Assembly: GCF_006345805.1 (NCBI RefSeq)
Contig: NW_021828131.1
Coordinates: 1 to 6,444, forward strand
DNA length: 6,444 nucleotides
Direction of reading: 5' to 3'
Source: Octopus sinensis
Taxonomy: Eukaryota
The notes beneath the pieces are model-generated. The model saw only the letters and a list, made by a program, of their open reading frames with translations. It did no database searches and had not been told where the DNA came from. This document shows positions 1 through 6,372 of the stretch, one piece after another. The position numbers were made by a program, and so were the translations under genes. Position 1 is the first letter of the stretch. The number at the start of each line of letters is the position of its first letter.

Positions 1-11
1 TTCAACAAAAT

Positions 12-49
12 CTGTTACTCTGAGTTTCTCGTTGCCGTTCATCAGACAG
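12..49 (-). ncRNA. Type I hammerhead ribozyme, family A
   Basis: Minus strand reads CTGT-CTGATGA-A-CG-GCAA-CG-A-GAA-ACTC-A-GAGT-A-ACAG. Helix I is CTGT/ACAG, core is CUGAUGA + GAAA, helix II is GNRA-capped, helix III is near-palindromic, and the cleavage triplet is GUA. Confidence 0.8.
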
Positions 50-63
50 TTTTTTGCTAGAAA

Positions 64-100
64 CTGTCTGATGAACGCAACGAGAAACTCAGAGTAACAG
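64..100 (+). ncRNA. Type I hammerhead ribozyme, family A (1-nt deletion in helix II/loop)
   Basis: CTGT CTGATGA ACGCAACGA GAAACTCAGAGTA ACAG; identical to 5543-5580 except for one missing G. Confidence 0.7.
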
Positions 101-208
101 ATTTTGTTGAATTTTCTGCTGCTTAAAATAAAGCATATTACTCTACCACTGGTATTTGAGTACTCTTTTTGCCACCTTGTTTCACATTATGTGTTTACTC
201 CGGTATCT

Positions 209-211
209 TAT

Positions 212-271
<60 letters not shown>
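209..271. repeat. (TA)n microsatellite
   Basis: Direct reading; imperfect TA run. Confidence 0.95.
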
Positions 272-451
272 AGATAAATAGGATAATAGCGATTTATACC
301 CAGTTTTATTAAGCAGTTAATTACTTATTTTCGTTCCTGCACCTACACATGTTTCTGCAACAATTAACTAATGCACACTGCAAAATTTATATCGTTATAT
401 GCACTTATTCTTAGTTGTCGCTTCTTCAGGGTGGATTAAAACGCATTCTTC

Positions 452-452
<1 letters not shown>
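272..452 (-). mobile_element. Probable solo pseudo-LTR of a second PLE family (B)
   Basis: ~180-bp island bounded by (TA)n on both sides and containing a minus-strand hammerhead. No ORF is attached, so the PLE assignment is inferred. Confidence 0.55.
340..433 (-). ncRNA. Type I hammerhead ribozyme with long helix II, family B
   Basis: Minus strand reads CACC-CTGAAGA-A-GCGACAACTAA...TTAATTGTTGC-A-GAA-ACATGTGT-A-GGTG. Helix I is CACC/GGTG, the base of helix II pairs 10 of 11, helix III is self-complementary, and the triplet is GUA. Confidence 0.75.

Positions 453-458
<6 letters not shown>

Positions 459-498
<40 letters not shown>
459..498. repeat. (TA)n microsatellite
   Basis: Direct reading. 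Confidence 0.95.
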
Positions 499-719
499 CG
501 GGGTGGGGAGCGCTGAAAAGTTCCTGGCTTTAAGGGTATTGTGAAAGGCCTACTTGGAGGCCCAACTTTCCGACCTCTTCTACAGGTCTTAGGAAAACTG
601 AAGGACCCCTGCAATAAGTGTGTGAATTTGAGAGAAGAATACGTTGAATAAATTCATAAGTAAGTGATCACCCCGTATTTTCTTTTACCCAAACCCAGGG
701 ACTTTTCAGATCCCTTTCG
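499..719 (+). mobile_element. Tc1/mariner-derived non-autonomous element (MITE)
   Basis: TIR core CTGAAAAGTTCCTGGCTTT (513-531) matches the reverse complement of 691-709 at 17/19. Both ends are TA-CG...CG-TA with a TA target duplication (497-498, 720-721). 595-651 translates KLKDPCNKCVNLREEYVE*, resembling the mariner transposase C-terminus (KLxxRWxKCxxxxGxYVE). Confidence 0.85.
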
Positions 720-727
720 TAAATTTG

Positions 728-804
728 TTGACCTAGGCGGGATTTGAACTCAGAATGTATTGGTATGAAAGTAAATGCTATCATACATTTCGTCCGTCAC
801 TCTA
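728..804 (-). mobile_element. Degenerate tRNA-derived SINE 5' head fragment
   Basis: Minus-strand B-box GAGTTCAAATCCC (739-751). Shares the GTTGAC...ATTTGAACTCAG layout with 6270-6372. Confidence 0.55.
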
Positions 805-922
805 TGTCTCATTTCTTCTGTTGAAAAAAAAAATAAAAGAGCAAAGCAAAATAAAACAATAAAGATATTATTTCAATTAAACAAGGTAAAATAAAAACGG
901 AAAGACAGATAAGGACACACCT

Positions 923-1473
923 AGAGAGAGAGGGAGAGAGGGAGAGAGGGAGAGAGAGAGAGAGGGAGAGAAAAGAGTAAGAGAGGGAGAGAGGGAGAGA
1001 GAGAGGGAGAGAGAAAGATTAAGTGAGAGAGAGAGGGAGAGAGAAGAGTAAGAGAGGGAGAGAGGGAGAGAGAGAGGGAGAGAGAAAGATTAAGTGAGAG
1101 AGAGAGGGAGAGAGAAGAGTAAGAGAGAGAGGGAGAGAGAGTAAGAGTAAGAGAGAGAGGGAGAGAGAAGAGTAAGAGTGAGAGAGGGAGAGAGAAAGAG
1201 TAAGAGAAAGAGAGAATGGCGAAAGAGAGAATGGAGAGGAAGGGCCTGGAGAGAGAGGTTGAAGAACTGTTGGAAAGAAAGTGGAGAGAAGGAAGAAAGA
1301 GAGAGGTTGTATATACAGAAAGGGATAGGGTGCAGAGAAAGAGACAGAGAAAGTGGAGAGAAAGAGTGAGTGTGTAGAGGGAGAGAGTGAAGAAAGACAG
1401 GGTGGGGAGAGAGAGACGATGGAAAGAAAAAAAAGAGAAGGTGGAGAAAGAGAGAAAGACAGGGTGGAGAGAG
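923..1473. repeat. GA-rich polypurine micro/minisatellite with higher-order repeats
   Basis: Nearly pure A/G from 923 to ~1215, then a degenerate GA-rich tail. Motifs GAGAGGGA and AAGAGTAA recur, and AAAGATTAAGTG occurs at 1014 and 1085. Confidence 0.9.
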
Positions 1474-2280
1474 ATTTTATTCTGTGAAATAAATTTACGC
1501 CCAAATTATCACCCCAATTAGTAAAAAAAGACGGTTTATTTTCCTTTATGTTTATTTGTTTTTAGTAAAATAATAATAAAAAAAAATAAACTTGGTAGTA
1601 TTTTTATGGTAATTAGTGCGGATAATGGCAGTTGTTGGGTTAACGTTAACGTAATTCCTGCTAATGTTTTGGACAGCACACAGAGTGGTACTGACATAAA
1701 CGAAAAGGAAAACAAGAAAAAAGAAGTCTCTACAAAAACAACATTAAAAAGAAAAACAGTAGTTTCTGAAGAACAACGTAAAAATAAAGAAAAGCAGTTT
1801 CGCATCCATGTTCCAGCCTCCACTTAAACACACTCACGTAAAACAAAAACAACAAGAATACATAATGATAATAAAAGTCACAAGCAAAAAAATAATAAAA
1901 AAGAGAAAAGAAAAATAATTATCGTAAAATATATATTTCATCTTTTCATAAATAAAAGAGATGGTAGTGTTGGTGTGACGGCCCTTAAACGAGGTTGCAA
2001 GGTGAAAGAAGAAACGATTGACCCTTCTCTAATTCTCTAGGCGAAACCCGAAGCCCCCAAAATTTCTCAATCAAACCAAAAAAAAAAACAAAAACAAAAA
2101 CAAAACACATACACAAGAGTAGTGAACTAACTAATTAAATAAAAATACACCATTTTTAAAAGATTGCAATTAAAAAACAAAGAATTAAAACAAATCAAAA
2201 AGAGCGTAGAAATCAGCGAATCAAAAGCGATGAGACGAAAATGAAATTAATTATAATACAAATTTTTAATTAGATTAGAT

Positions 2281-2647
2281 CATGGCTCTCCGTCGGTTGC
2301 GACGACTAGAGTTCCAGTTGATCCGATCAACGGAACAGCCTGCTCTGGGAAGTAACGCGCAAGTGGCTGAGCACTTTACATACACGTGTACCCTTAATGT
2401 AGTTCTCAGGGAGATTCAGCGCGACAAAGCTGACCCCTTTAAATACAGGTACAACAGAAACAGGAAGGCGTGAGAGAAAGTTGTGGTGAAAGAGGACAGC
2501 AGGGTTCGCTACCACTCCGTGCAGGAGCTTCGTGGAAATTTTCGTCTTTTCGTCAATAAACACTCACAACGCCCGGTCTGTGAATCGAAACCGCGATCCT
2601 AATACCGCGAGTCCGTTGATCTAATCACTGGGCCATTGCGCCTCCAT
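2281..2647 (-). mobile_element. Near full-length tRNA-derived SINE with target-site duplication
   Basis: Minus 5' end GGAGGCGCAA-TGGCCCAGTGAT (A-box-like, 2624-2635) followed by GGTTTCGATTC (B-box, 2582-2592). Flanked by ATTAGATTAGAT (2269-2280) and ATTAGATTCGAT (2648-2659), an 11/12 match. The 3' half is homologous to 2814-2979. Confidence 0.85.
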
Positions 2648-2813
2648 ATTAGATTCGATATTGCTTGAGACTAAAGACCGCCTTAAGAATGCAGGTAACA
2701 GTCTTCATGCCTTTCCACAACGCGTAAACAAAGAGGTTTGTTGACGGCCACGGTGAATCCTTCGTTCAGTTTCACAATGGACATTCGGCTGTTCTGTCAT
2801 TTGAATATCCTAC

Positions 2814-3011
2814 TGGTACTCCGTCGGTTTCGACGACGAGTGTTCCAGAGGTATCGTGGAATTTAACGTACAAGTGGTTGAGCACTCCACAGCCAGGCGT
2901 ACCCCTAACGTAGTTCTCAAGGAGATTCAGCGTGACACAGAGTGTGACAAGGCGAGGCCTTTCGAATAACACGTACAACTCATTTTTGCCACCTGAGTGG
3001 AATCGGAGTAA
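2814..3011 (-). mobile_element. 5'-truncated SINE sharing its 3' module with 2281-2647
   Basis: Aligns with 2283-2455 (CTCCGTCGGTT.CGACGAC, CAAGTGG.TGAGCACT, GTAGTTCTCA.GGAGATTCAGCG.GACA), then diverges into TCATTTTTGCCACCTGAGTGGA. Confidence 0.8.
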
Positions 3012-3050
3012 TTATATATACTCAACCCACCCATCCACACAAGTGTGTGA

Positions 3051-3110
3051 ATATACATAAATACATACGTACATACATACATATATACATATATACATAC
3101 ATACATACAT
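3051..3110. repeat. (TACA)n/(TA)n microsatellite
   Basis: Direct reading. Confidence 0.9.
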
Positions 3111-3150
3111 GTTAGTAAGGAGAGACACAAATAAGAAAGAAGAAAACAAA

Positions 3151-3195
3151 GGACCACTGATGCGGTCACAGGAGTGTGACGAAAGAACTCTGGCC
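3151..3195 (+). ncRNA. Hammerhead-like motif with variant core (CUGAUGC), family C
   Basis: GGA-CCA-CTGATGC-G-GTCACA-GGAG-TGTGAC-GAA-AG-AA-CT-C-TGG-CC. Helix I is CCA/TGG plus GG/CC, a perfect 6-bp helix II abuts GAAA, helix III is 2 bp, and the triplet is CUC. A9 is replaced by C. It lies in the microsatellite-bounded island 3111-3323. Confidence 0.55.
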
Positions 3196-3323
3196 GAAAT
3201 AAGATTAAGATTAATGTAAAATAAATAACACTGAAGCAAAAAACACCACAATATAGTGCTGTGTTTTTATTGGCTAAGCTGGCAAAATGACCATTCCAAA
3301 ATATAAAAATAAATAATAAATAA

Positions 3324-3359
3324 TATATACATATATTTATACTATCATAACATACATAT

Positions 3360-3393
<34 letters not shown>

Positions 3394-3452
3394 ATACACA
3401 CACAGCACACACACACATATATATACATACACATACATACATAGATACATAC

Positions 3453-3506
<54 letters not shown>

Positions 3507-3520
3507 ATTATATATATATA
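3324..3520. repeat. Compound (TA)n/(CA)n/(TACA)n microsatellite
   Basis: Direct reading. Confidence 0.95.
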
Positions 3521-3648
3521 TACCGGAGTAAACACAAAATGTGAAACAAGGTGGAAAAAAAAAGAGTACCAAATACCAGTGGTAGAGTAATATGCTTTAT
3601 TTTAAGCAGCAGAAAATTCAAAAAATCTGTTACTCTGAGTTTCTCGTT
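3521..3648 (-). repeat. Inverted partial pseudo-LTR (family A), broken inside the hammerhead
   Basis: Reverse complement of ~78-205 with a few indels. It retains GAAACTCAGAGTAACAG but lacks CTGATGA. Confidence 0.9.
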
Positions 3649-4535
3649 AGCAAAGATTCGAACCATCCACCAGTTATCCTTAGCAACTTAGTCAGCAATG
3701 TAGGTAGAAGAATATCTCAATTTCTTCGGACGAGGCAGTTTCCATAATGCTGCACCTTATTACGATAGCGCATTAAAGAATAGTGGATTCTCGGAGAAGA
3801 TCCAGTTCAACCAGCTTAATGCTAATAATAATGCTGCACGAAGAACTAGGACCAGGAAAAGTTTTGTGGTTCAACCCGGCTTTCAATTGGCCGTAAAGAC
3901 TAATATAGGTAAGGAATTTTTGAGATTAGTCTCTAAGCATTTTAAGCAGGGTCATAAATTCTACAGAATATTTAATAGAAGAACCCTGAAGGTTAGCTAT
4001 TCTTGTTGCAGAAATTTCGCCTCTTACATTAGCCAACATAATAGGAAGCTAATTGAGATTAGACATGGTGCCGAGCCCATTAAGAAATGTAATTTCAAAA
4101 ACGAAAGCTCCTGTCCGTTAGAAGGGAAATGTCTAGTGAAAGGAGTAGTTTATGAGCCAAGGTGCAAGTGGAAGGCTCATCGGAATACAAGACACACAGG
4201 GGCTTCAGAAAATTCATTAAAACAAGATTTTATTCTCATAAGAATTCTTTTAAATACCCAGAGAATAGGAAGAAAACCAGCCTAGCAAAATATGTCTGGG
4301 AACTAAAAGAAAAGAAGCCCCACCTTTCAACGTGACATGGAGCATTCTGGACAGGGCGGCACCATACAGGCATGGAGCTTACAAATATAATTTCAAGTGC
4401 AAGCTTTGCTTATTAGAAAAAATGCACATATTATTCAAAAGACAATAATTCTTTGAATCAAAGAAGTGAGTAATGAACTTATGTAGGCACGCGGCTAAAT
4501 TTAAAATGTCGAATATAAATATACCATATGGATAG
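3646..4535 (+). pseudogene. Frameshifted C-terminal part of PLE protein: RT thumb, Cys-rich linker, GIY-YIG endonuclease
   Basis: Joining frames by hand gives VSKDSNHPPVILSNLVSNVGRRIS..SSDEAVFHNAAPYYDSALKNSGF..RTRKVLWFNPAF..VKTNIGKEFLRLVSKHF..IFNRRTLKVSYSC..CNFKNESSCPLEGKCLVKGVVYE..GASENSFKTRFYSHKNSF..TSLAKYVWELK..VTWSILDRAAPY..CKLCLLEKMHIL..LNQRSELMNLCRHAAKF..YG* (TAG 4533-4535). About ten frameshifts are needed. It includes the supplied ORF 3866-4285. Confidence 0.9.
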
Positions 4536-5542
4536 AGTATATATTTTGTATTTTGATTTTTGATTTTTGATTTTGACTCTTAAGCGCTACGACGGATCTA
4601 TAGCAAAGTCTTATTGTTTCTACATATATATTAGGAAAAACCTACAAACTTTGTTTTCATGTTATTGTATTGCATAGGATTACCTTGATTATTTATATTA
4701 CCTTGATTACTTATAAATGACCCAAAATAGGATGTTATATTTTATTTTATATGTCTTTCGTATATATTTTTATTAATGCACCCATTTTTTAAAAGCAATG
4801 TTTTTTTTAAAAAAGCAATGTTGTCAAATTTAGAATGTTTATATAAGTTTGTGTGTATAGCAAAATAGTATTTGTAAGCATGCGTATCTGTGTATGTGTA
4901 AGTGAAAGTATGCTTGTGCTTAAGCACGCATACACACGACGGTATGTATATGTATCAATTCAAATTGTGTATGTATACTGGCCTCTATAGATGCCAATAA
5001 TATCGCTACAAGTTTTTCCCCACCCCTCCCTCGTTCCTTTTTCTCTCTTTCCCTTTCTTTCGTTCCCCCTCCTTGCTCAGTATATGAGAATTGCTACATA
5101 GATGAATTTTAGCTTGCGTGCGAGACGGTTTGCGTGAATAATGTACACATGCTTTTATGTATAATTTAGATTCATATTCATACGTCTGTATATGTATGTA
5201 TGGCGTTTACGCGCATCCTTTTGTGTGTATGTTATATATATGTGGATTTTAATATAAATATGTATTGCAGTATTTATAACAGGTTTAATTTCTATGCATT
5301 AATTTGTACTGTCTTCATTAACGGCAATAGGTTTTTTCCTCGGTTTTTCCTCGGATTTTATAATTTTTTAAATTTTATAAGTTTTTTTATATATATATAC
5401 ATATATTTTGACCTTTTTGTTTATCGCTCGAAGATTGACCGTTTTTTCTAAAGGGCAATCAAACAAGTCCATTTCTTTTTAAAGGTGTAGCGTTTGTAAG
5501 AGTATAGATTGAATTGATATATATGTTCCATTCTAGCAAAAA

Positions 5543-5580
5543 CTGTCTGATGAACGGCAACGAGAAACTCAGAGTAACAG
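5543..5580 (+). ncRNA. Type I hammerhead ribozyme, family A, at the PLE 3' terminus
   Basis: CTGT CTGATGA A CG GCAA CG A GAA ACTC A GAGT A ACAG. Helix I extends as TAGCAAAA(A)CTGT / ACAG(A)TTTTGTTG. Predicted cleavage is after A5576. Confidence 0.85.
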
Positions 5581-5613
5581 ATTTTGTTGAATTTTCTGCT
5601 GCTTAAAATAAAG

Positions 5614-5650
<37 letters not shown>
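5614..5650. repeat. (TA)n microsatellite
   Basis: Direct reading. Confidence 0.95.
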
Positions 5651-5711
5651 ATAATCACCGTTCTGTGAGAGCAGCAGATTGCTAGAAATGAATGTCAAAG
5701 AACTCTTTAGC

Positions 5712-5747
5712 CACAAAAGCACAAAAGCACAAAAGCACAAAAGCACA
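5712..5747. repeat. Tandem octamer (CACAAAAG)x4.5
   Basis: Perfect units start at 5712, 5720, 5728 and 5736, followed by CACA. Confidence 0.95.
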
Positions 5748-5781
5748 TGACAGGGGAGACAACCTCTCTACTGCACTCGAG

Positions 5782-5838
5782 AGGCCTTAGACTGTCATGT
5801 CAATTTCGCATGAAATTTAATGGTCATCAGTAATACCT
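5782..5838 (-). ncRNA. Candidate type I hammerhead ribozyme, family D
   Basis: Minus strand reads AGGTATTA-CTGATGA-C-CAT-TAAATTTC-ATG-C-GAA-ATTG-ACATGA-CAGT-C-TAAGGCCT. Helix I pairs 7 of 8, helix III is 4 bp and quasi-palindromic, and the triplet is GUC. There is a C.C mismatch at the base of helix II. Confidence 0.5.
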
Positions 5839-6089
5839 GCTCCATTGCGGGTGGTGAAGCTAAATTCTACCCCGTCAGTATATGCATAGATTTTACTATA
5901 CGAATTAATGATTTCTCTCTTGTCTGTAAATAGAAAATGTGCTTATATGGCTAAATAGTTCTTTGACTTTTATTTCTAGCGATGCTTCCTGCTCCCTGCA
6001 GCGTTCGTCACATTTTAGTGACGATGAATTATTTCCTATTTGGTTTTGAATTGCATCTAGCCACCTTCTTTATTTAATATATATTTATA

Positions 6090-6257
6090 TATCTTGGACT
6101 TTCCTCTGTCTCCTGTTTCTGAAGAAGAGCTTTGCTTGAAACGTAAAAGTACCTTTCTTTCCTTTCCTGAGCGTCTGTTAATACTTTGCAAGTATCCCGT
6201 CCTCGTGTTGCTACTTTTTTCCTGTGTTTTTTCTTCATTTTTTCTTTGATTAATTAA
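6090..6257 (+). mobile_element. Probable solo pseudo-LTR of another PLE family (E); boundaries approximate
   Basis: Minimal hammerhead followed by T-rich sequence ending at (TA)n 6258-6270, with a TA-rich stretch upstream (6076-6092). The assignment is inferred. Confidence 0.45.
6116..6148 (+). ncRNA. Minimal type I hammerhead ribozyme, family E
   Basis: TTT-CTGAAGA-A-GAGC-TTT-GCTT-GAA-ACGT-A-AAA. The core is intact, helix III is a loop-less ACGT palindrome as in PLE minimal hammerheads, and helix I is a weak 3 bp. Confidence 0.65.
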
Positions 6258-6269
6258 ATATATATATAT

Positions 6270-6372
6270 AAAGTTGACACTAATATTATTTGAACTCAGC
6301 GCAGAACGCTGGAACGAATACTGCAATGCAGTTTAACTTAAGTTCTAACGATTCAGTTAATTCACCATCCTT
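6270..6372 (-). mobile_element. Degenerate tRNA-derived SINE 5' head fragment (related to 728-804)
   Basis: Minus-strand B-box remnant GAGTTCAAAT (6288-6297). The spacing from GTTGAC to ATTTGAACTCAG is similar to the 728-804 copy. Confidence 0.45.

What the first reader, a model, noticed from the sequence alone, without database searches (positions are those of the whole stretch)
1..6270. Five unrelated hammerhead ribozyme families in 6.4 kb, each lying next to TA-type microsatellites
Seen: seven complete hammerhead-like motifs (12-49, 64-100 and 5543-5580 of family A; 340-433; 3151-3195; 5782-5838; 6116-6148) plus one half copy (3628-3648). The families share only the core and differ in all helices, and each lies within ~150 bp of a (TA)n/(TACA)n tract. 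Known: PLE pseudo-LTRs carry type I hammerheads with palindromic helix III, and some PLE clades favour microsatellites. Inference: the islands between microsatellites are ribozyme-bearing solo pLTRs or non-autonomous retroelements from several families using the same target, so any transcript crossing this locus on either strand would contain candidate self-cleavage sites.
Basis: partly seen in the sequence, partly recalled or inferred. Interest (0 to 1): 0.8.

Follow-up and report, generated by a model that had tools for sequence, protein, structure and literature searches.

The report
Pile-up of Penelope retroelement hammerheads
The seven hammerhead-ribozyme motifs are real and belong to five different repeat families, most likely end pieces of Penelope-like jumping genes that piled up here by inserting into TA microsatellites; this is a dense example of a known kind, and these copies are probably inert.

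Summary
Observation confirmed: seven type I hammerhead motifs at the stated places, against 0.05-0.08 in shuffles. No Rfam hammerhead model matches. All five families are dispersed repeats.

A is the pLTR of a young Hydra-clade Penelope-like element (2,572 exact motif copies). C, B and probably E are 3' ends of other PLEs. D is an old ~345-nt ORF-less monomer in partial tandems, retrozyme-like.

Element 3' ends abut (TA)n (A 35/35, C 27/36, E 24/33, B 13/28, D 6/17; background 18%). The genome is full of such motifs (about one per 30 kb), and they cluster about 2.5-fold. The window is an extreme of that pattern, on a 6.4-kb unplaced contig.

Copies of the old families B and D decay neutrally with almost no covariation, and cleavage of read-through RNA is doubtful. 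One lead: the youngest, commonest C subfamily carries C instead of the conserved A9. The scan reported similar PLE hammerheads in other genomes.

The parts
1..56 (-). Family A pLTR, inverted copy, cut by the contig start; hammerhead core 45->16
   Evidence: (I5); the same hairpin layout occurs at chromosomal loci L004/5, L010/11, L012/13, L015/16, L025, L030
61..207 (+). Family A pLTR running to the long terminus; hammerhead 64-100 with one base missing in loop II
209..271 (.). (TA)n tract shared by the 3' ends of A and B
272..452 (-). Family B pLTR fragment; hammerhead 433->340 with a 66-nt stem II region; an old family linked to a Hydra-like endonuclease
   Evidence: (43 other matches, 73-89%)
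453..498 (.). (TA)n tract
3111..3310 (+). Family C pLTR fragment (Neptune/Nematis-type PLE); hammerhead 3154-3193 with C at position 9; a second, broken core-like stretch at about 3226-3310
3301..3522 (.). (TA)n/(TACA)n tract between C and the inverted A pLTR
3523..3648 (-). Inverted 5' pLTR of the family A insertion, ending in the half hammerhead 3628-3648
   Evidence: (I1, I11)
3646..4532 (+). 5'-truncated, frameshifted remnant of the Hydra-clade PLE ORF (residues 426-723 of the natural 723-aa frame in L186: end of the RT region, linker, endonuclease)
   Evidence: tblastn E 2e-109; 97% DNA identity, 26 gap openings
4533..5612 (+). 3' UTR and terminal pLTR of the family A insertion; hammerhead 5543-5580; short terminus 37 nt after the cleavage base
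5614..5650 (.). (TA)n tract shared by the 3' ends of A and D
5665..5905 (-). Family D monomer piece; decayed hammerhead 5835->5785
5914..6070 (+). Family D, second piece in inverted orientation (no hammerhead)
6092..6258 (+). Family E pLTR fragment; minimal hammerhead 6116-6148, followed by (TA)6 at 6259-6270

Best explanation
The window holds six insertions from five repeat families that carry type I hammerhead motifs and end at TA tracts, most likely fossils of Penelope-like retroelements (PLEs) that were reverse-transcribed into (TA)n targets one after another. Shown: family A is the pLTR of a Hydra-clade PLE, present here as an inverted-pLTR hairpin and as a 5'-truncated copy with a broken ORF. 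B and C lie downstream of PLE endonuclease remnants at other loci, and E does so at one locus, judged by eye. D is a ~345-nt ORF-less unit in partial tandems. Inferred from known PLE biology: the GIY-YIG endonuclease nicks (TA)n and reverse transcription starts at fixed internal sites downstream of the hammerhead (A: +37 or +108). It usually stops early, so short 3' pieces that carry the hammerhead are the commonest product. Each insertion leaves TA runs on its flanks, which remain targets, so unrelated families accumulate together. In the parent elements the hammerheads would act as dimers through palindromic helix III, probably with help from the PLE protein. These genomic copies are probably inert.
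For: 7 motifs against 0.05-0.08 in shuffles. Copy numbers: A 2,572 exact; C 2,728; E 184 with a near-exact pattern; B 43 other DNA matches; D family, many matches among the 40 of 323 candidates scored. The 723-aa frame of L186 has RWK, DKT, CxCX5C, CxxC and CxH, the Hydra-clade marks listed in PMC8557442 section 11, which also says almost all such families insert in (TA)n. Window 3647-5612 is 97% identical to L186 and L182. A copies end in a TA run in 35 of 35 cases, in two sharp classes (20 at +36-43, 15 at +104-113). A TA run lies within 200 nt downstream in C 27/36, E 24/33, B 13/28, D 6/17, against 18% background; upstream C 6/36 and B 3/28. Endonuclease remnants lie upstream in the same orientation for C (6 of 27 distinct loci, plus L125, L187, L192) and B (3 of 29 loci). 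Hammerheads of other families near family loci: 47 in 442.6 kb against 16 in 399.8 kb of fixed-position regions, p=5.5e-4.
Against: No Rfam hammerhead match. Descriptor hits in fixed-position regions are not enriched within 150 nt of TA tracts (2 of 16, background 25%), so the TA link rests on the five families and is weak for D (6/17 downstream, 6/17 upstream). At least 3 of the 47 'other family' hits are mislabelled own-family copies and inverted pairs count twice. The 2.5-fold clustering does not by itself explain a ~27-fold dense window (Poisson P(>=6)=3e-7, about 0.14 expected over 422,000 windows). E's link to an ORF rests on one locus read by eye. No empty site was found. Nothing was assayed.
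Confidence: 0.88

Rival explanations
1. The locus is a selected cluster of ribozymes that cuts any transcript crossing it on either strand.
For: Four motifs lie on + and three on -. The density is about 27 times the genome sample. B folds as a hammerhead both as monomer and as dimer.
Against: Copies decay neutrally: core conservation 0.91 against 0.86 elsewhere in B, and 0.86 against 0.86 in D; intact cores 14/28 and 3/16. The window's D copy has mismatches in stems I and III, its C copy has C9, and one A copy has a deletion and sits in a hairpin. PLE hammerheads cleave poorly and as dimers (PMC4209133), and one needed its protein (PMC11167929). No host gene is known on the contig.
Confidence: 0.05
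2. The density is partly an assembly artefact: a short, poorly polished unplaced contig that joins repeats through TA tracts.
For: The window is an entire 6.4-kb contig that starts inside a hairpin. The A copy differs from L186 by 26 gap openings but only 22 mismatches, which looks like long-read error. The stretch 1490-2280 has no second place in the assembly.
Against: Every junction type seen here also occurs on chromosome-scale contigs. Multi-family clusters occur there too: three families in 5.7 kb in L183, and A, D and three others in 3.2 kb in L166. The window's B and D copies are unique, 14-25% diverged sequences.
Confidence: 0.1
3. All five islands are non-autonomous retrozyme-like elements or solo pLTRs that move by themselves as short RNAs.
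For: D forms ~340-348-nt partial tandems in 8 of 25 distinct loci, plus a two-hammerhead tandem in L193, GC 36%. Most B, C and E copies have no ORF nearby.
Against: A carries an ORF remnant in the window. B, C and E 5' ends extend into PLE 3' UTR and endonuclease sequence at other loci, as expected for 5' truncation.
Confidence: 0.12

Closest known systems
Hydra clade of C-terminal EN+ Penelope-like elements (Craig et al. 2021, PMC8557442)
   Same: Family A: single ~720-aa ORF, RWK, DKT, CxCX5C, CxxC and CxH motifs, hammerhead in the pLTR, inverted 5'-truncated copy, insertion in (TA)n.
   Different: Described as a small number of families mostly from cnidarians. Here it is a young family with at least 2,572 exact motif copies, and B, L188 and L191 suggest several more Hydra-like families in one genome.
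[quoted passage not shown]
   Same: Type I topology, palindromic helix III, short helix I, unpaired base after position 9, many families per genome, mostly single motifs from truncated PLEs, opposite-strand pairs 100-700 bp apart.
   Different: The density here is higher than the 2,000-9,000 per genome quoted there, though descriptors differ. B has a very long stem II, A only two base pairs in stem II, and most C copies have C9.
Non-LTR retrozymes of animals (Cervera and de la Pena 2020, PMC7229834; bioRxiv 10.64898/2026.07.22.740005)
   Same: Family D: ORF-less, low-GC, ~345-nt unit with a type I hammerhead in head-to-tail order.
   Different: Mostly partial tandems with PLE-style inversions rather than long arrays; old and decayed; no RNA evidence.
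Poseidon PLE of Anolis (Frangieh et al. 2024, PMC11167929)
   Same: Two fixed internal end points downstream of the hammerhead (the 'tail' signature) and AT-rich targets.
   Different: The two ends of A are about 70 nt apart rather than 30-40; different clade; not tested in vitro.

Membership tests
Type I hammerhead ribozyme (PLE minimal type) | Core CUGANGA...GAAA with an NUH cleavage triplet | tested here: met
   Six of seven motifs have the exact core; C has CUGAUGC
Type I hammerhead ribozyme (PLE minimal type) | Three helices, with palindromic helix III that allows dimers | tested here: met
   Self-complementarity of helix III is 0.86-1.0 for A, B, D, E and 0.67 for C; stem II of A is only 2 bp
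Type I hammerhead ribozyme (PLE minimal type) | Match to an Rfam hammerhead model | tested here: not met
   No hammerhead among 43 matches at E<=10
Type I hammerhead ribozyme (PLE minimal type) | Covariation of helices | tested here: inconclusive
   Within B and D one compensatory change each (A, C and E not counted). Across families, features stricter than the descriptor hold in 9 of 16 real hits against 16 of 153 shuffled hits
Type I hammerhead ribozyme (PLE minimal type) | Site-specific self-cleavage | not testable with these tools
   Needs an in vitro assay or raw RNA ends
Hydra-clade PLE (family A) | RWK, DKT, CxCX5C linker, CxxC and CxH around the endonuclease E and N | tested here: met
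   L186 frame: RWK 49, DKT 125, CNCKSESSC 574, CKLC 679, CRH 707; features from PMC8557442 section 11
Hydra-clade PLE (family A) | pLTR with hammerhead, tandem or inverted structure, (TA)n insertion | tested here: met
Hydra-clade PLE (family A) | RT phylogeny with reference Hydra elements | not tested
   No reference sequences at hand; the Pfam scan gave no family; 2,090 mostly unnamed homologues at E<=1e-30
Neptune/Nematis-type PLE (family C) | C-terminal GIY-YIG preceded by CX2-5CxxC | tested here: met
   L187: CTDRNCTVC; GIY-YIG E=0.002, below the curated cut-off; Neptune versus Nematis not resolved
Naiad PLE | N-terminal endonuclease and no canonical hammerhead | tested here: not met
   In A and C the endonuclease follows the RT and hammerheads are present
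Non-LTR retrozyme (family D) | 150-450-nt ORF-less tandem unit with a type I hammerhead, GC under 45% | tested here: met
   Period 319-348 nt in 8 of 25 distinct loci plus L193; GC 36%
Non-LTR retrozyme (family D) | [quoted passage not shown] | tested here: inconclusive
   Only L193 has two hammerhead regions 342 nt apart, and neither passes the descriptor
Non-LTR retrozyme (family D) | Expression as linear and circular monomer RNA | not testable with these tools
   No raw RNA run was offered

The most novel reading that the evidence does not exclude
Family C is a natural knock-out experiment. Its youngest subfamily arose once, replaced the conserved core base A9 with C, and still made about three quarters of the family's 2,728 motif copies, some with ORF sequence attached. 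If C9 abolishes cleavage, a PLE amplified about two-thousand-fold in vivo with a dead hammerhead, which would show that the ribozyme is dispensable for retrotransposition. A second core-like stretch at this subfamily's short terminus might have taken over 3'-end formation.
Probability: 0.25. Interest if true: 0.55.

Novelty: new member of a known kind. Interest (0 to 1): 0.27.

Why it matters
The kind is known: PLE pLTR hammerheads, Hydra-clade targeting of (TA)n, retrozyme-like derivatives. What this adds is modest. It gives a young, high-copy Hydra-clade family with a natural open frame and two sharp termini, a good substrate for testing how PLEs find microsatellites. It shows a genome with tens of thousands of hammerhead motifs that cluster. 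It also gives a natural A9/C9 pair of subfamilies that makes the open question of what PLE hammerheads are for directly testable.

Tried and rejected
Rfam scan: no hammerhead, only microRNA-type hairpin matches below gathering scores. DNA search of the A pLTR returned nothing because very common words are skipped; patterns were used instead. Pfam on the window's ORF pieces and on the L186 and L187 RT frames: no family. Naiad, my first guess from recall: rejected (endonuclease is C-terminal, hammerhead present). The pattern for B (299 matches) mostly finds other families that share helix III, so it is not a copy number for B. Exact D patterns found 1 and 3 places: the family is old. The Hydra-type ORF in L191 was first taken for E's parent, but it has its own pLTR family; the same holds for L248. 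Empty-site search with 1490-2280 found no second locus. RNA: no RNA holder listed. Contigs of three of four runs guessed to be RNA cover the ORF remnant, but they cannot be tied to this copy or show ends, so they were not used as evidence. The second core-like stretch in C was judged probably chance: C at position 9, poor pairing at the base of stem II, and no G12 in any of the A9 copies examined. The script stopped with an error after printing the junction data; its shuffle part was rerun, where the shuffled rate (3.8 per 400 kb) was higher than (0-4, mean 2). Lunse et al. 2017 (PMC5785218) on PLE hammerhead variants is not held and may already describe C9 cores. A search for 'hammerhead + A9C + catalytic core' found no paper. 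A search for 'octopus + hammerhead ribozyme + genome' found 4 papers (3 listed), none about this topic by title. No supplements were read; the Craig et al. files list Hydra families and might include this one.
Full report
Observation. The descriptor was written after reading the finding and admits C at position 9. Rfam gives no hammerhead match at E<=10. The half copy at 3628-3648 is the inverted 3' half of motif A. The window is the whole contig C4602 of a 2.72-Gb genome. The interspersed repeats look to me like octopus SINEs; that is recall and was not tested.

Family A. The 34-nt motif has 2,572 exact copies, control 0. Window 3647-5612 is 97% identical to longer natural copies L186 and L182. 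L186 holds a 723-aa open frame with RWK, DKT, CxCX5C, CxxC and CxH. These are the marks of the Hydra clade in PMC8557442 (section 11 read in full, plus abstract and passages), which also reports hammerheads and (TA)n insertion for that clade. The window carries residues 426-723 in broken frames at 3646-4532, preceded by an inverted pLTR (3523-3648) and followed by 3' UTR and pLTR. Positions 1-207 are an inverted-pLTR hairpin of a layout that is common at chromosomal loci. All 35 copies examined end in a TA run, 20 at +36-43 and 15 at +104-113 from the cleavage base. [quoted passage not shown]

Families B to E. B has 43 other matches at 73-89% among 40 of 101 candidates scored. Hydra-like endonuclease remnants lie upstream in the same orientation in 3 of 29 loci. 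C has 2,728 pattern matches. Endonuclease remnants lie upstream in 6 of 27 distinct loci and in L125, L187 and L192, with a CX4CxxC linker and a weak GIY-YIG hit, so C is Neptune/Nematis-type. E has 184 near-exact matches. One of four upstream regions inspected, out of 30 loci, shows GIY-YIG-like fragments, judged by eye. D is old (70-92% identity). Its two window pieces occur elsewhere in the order D2-linker-D1-D2 with a period of 319-348 nt in 8 of 25 distinct loci, and L193 has two hammerhead regions 342 nt apart, GC 36%. That fits the description of non-LTR retrozymes (PMC7229834, passages; bioRxiv 10.64898/2026.07.22.740005, part 1 of 5), but no RNA evidence is in hand.

Microsatellites. 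A pure TA run lies within 200 nt downstream of the cleavage base in A 35/35, C 27/36, E 24/33, B 13/28 and D 6/17, against 18% of background positions. Upstream the counts are 34/35, 6/36, 14/33, 3/28 and 6/17; A's upstream figure is inflated by an internal TA run and by inverted partners.

How unusual is the window? Forty 10-kb regions at fixed round positions gave 16 hits in 399.8 kb. Shuffles gave 0-4 and 3.8 on average. That is about one real motif per 30 kb, roughly 80,000 genome-wide, a crude extrapolation. An independent pattern for one subclass alone gives 36,678 matches against 5,615 for the reversed control. Near loci of the window's families, other hammerheads occur at 47 per 442.6 kb (p=5.5e-4 against the fixed regions). 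At least 3 of these are mislabelled own-family copies and inverted pairs count twice. TA tracts are also denser there, 2.3-4.0 against 1.9 per kb. The window has 7 where 0.26 is expected. Six insertions have Poisson P=3e-7, about 0.14 windows genome-wide before clustering is allowed for. It is therefore an extreme of a genome-wide pattern. Chromosomal loci with three to five families within a few kb exist (L183; L166). An assembly contribution cannot be excluded: gap openings outnumber mismatches against L186, and no second locus or empty site was found.

Function. Within B and D the copies decay neutrally: core conservation 0.91 against 0.86 and 0.86 against 0.86, intact cores 14/28 and 3/16, one compensatory change each. 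Structure shows across families instead: stem I of 4 bp or more together with a near-perfect helix III palindrome in 9 of 16 real hits against 16 of 153 shuffled hits. Minimum-energy folding gives the hammerhead fold only for B. PMC4209133 (parts 1-2 of 4 read) reports no monomer cleavage and low dimer cleavage for minimal PLE hammerheads. PMC11167929 reports protein-assisted cleavage that is not needed for insertion in vitro. Only A has two same-strand copies here, 5.5 kb apart, one inside a hairpin and missing a base. Cleavage of read-through RNA is therefore unlikely to matter (inference).

The one lead. In family C only 690 of 2,728 matches have the canonical A9. In a 36-row alignment 27 rows have C, 6 A, 2 T and 1 lacks the site. 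The C9 rows form one star-like group (support 93/90, bootstrap not fully settled; T and unassigned rows left out) with 94.9% mean identity, against 84.6% among A9 rows. Some C9 copies carry endonuclease sequence (L061/62, L066, L071). The text of section 8 of PMC3088659 names other natural core variants but not this one (its figure was not seen), and a search for A9C found nothing. Lunse et al. 2017, seen only as a reference in PMC6765202 (passages), could not be read and may cover it. A second core-like stretch has its predicted cut one base from C's short terminus, and has G12 in 22 of 27 C9 rows and 0 of 6 A9 rows, one of them unreadable. It also has C at position 9 and a poor stem II base, and is broken in the window, so I treat it as probably chance.

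Verdict. The features are real and of a known kind: hammerhead-bearing ends of several PLE families, plus one retrozyme-like unit, gathered at TA tracts. A 2026 octopus repeat annotation lists 31 recently active Penelope-like families and has no mention of hammerheads or ribozymes in its main text (PMC13282606, passages); it is relevant only if my recalled guess at the host is right. Earlier scan notes on other genomes reached the same kind of verdict; they were seen after my reading was set. Interest 0.27.

Noticed in passing
G000 C1, e.g. 257511/258071/258629, 399015/399573/400130, 4791457/4792012/4792567: Direct tandems of hammerhead motifs with a period of about 555-560 nt, a candidate retrozyme family with longer units than the usual 150-450 nt.
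   Followed up: no
window 3226-3310 and family C loci: Second hammerhead-like stretch whose predicted cleavage base lies one base from the short terminus of family C; broken in the window.
   Followed up: partly
L188 (G000:C1:28343500-28350800) and L191:5120-7470: Two further Hydra-like PLE families with near-full ORFs and their own hammerheads; helix III palindromes are shared between otherwise unrelated families.
   Followed up: partly
The family A protein has 2,090 homologues at E<=1e-30; most of the 120 listed lie on 2.2-3.5-kb contigs from unnamed assemblies, about the length of one element.
   Followed up: no
window 500-800, 2283-2650, 2812-3011: Other abundant dispersed repeats, SINE-like by recall; found in 3-14 of 40 fixed-position regions.
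   Followed up: partly
window 923-1475 and 1500-2280: A (GA)-rich minisatellite and an A-rich stretch with no second copy in the assembly.
   Followed up: partly
L191:3716-5026, L175, L162, L146: D and E-like pieces lie close together at several loci, as in the window; whether this is shared targeting or a real link is unresolved.
   Followed up: partly
all fetched loci: 40 of 87 crude hammerhead families have a stem II region longer than 40 nt, and 14 of 87 have C at position 9 (some of these may be chance hits).
   Followed up: no
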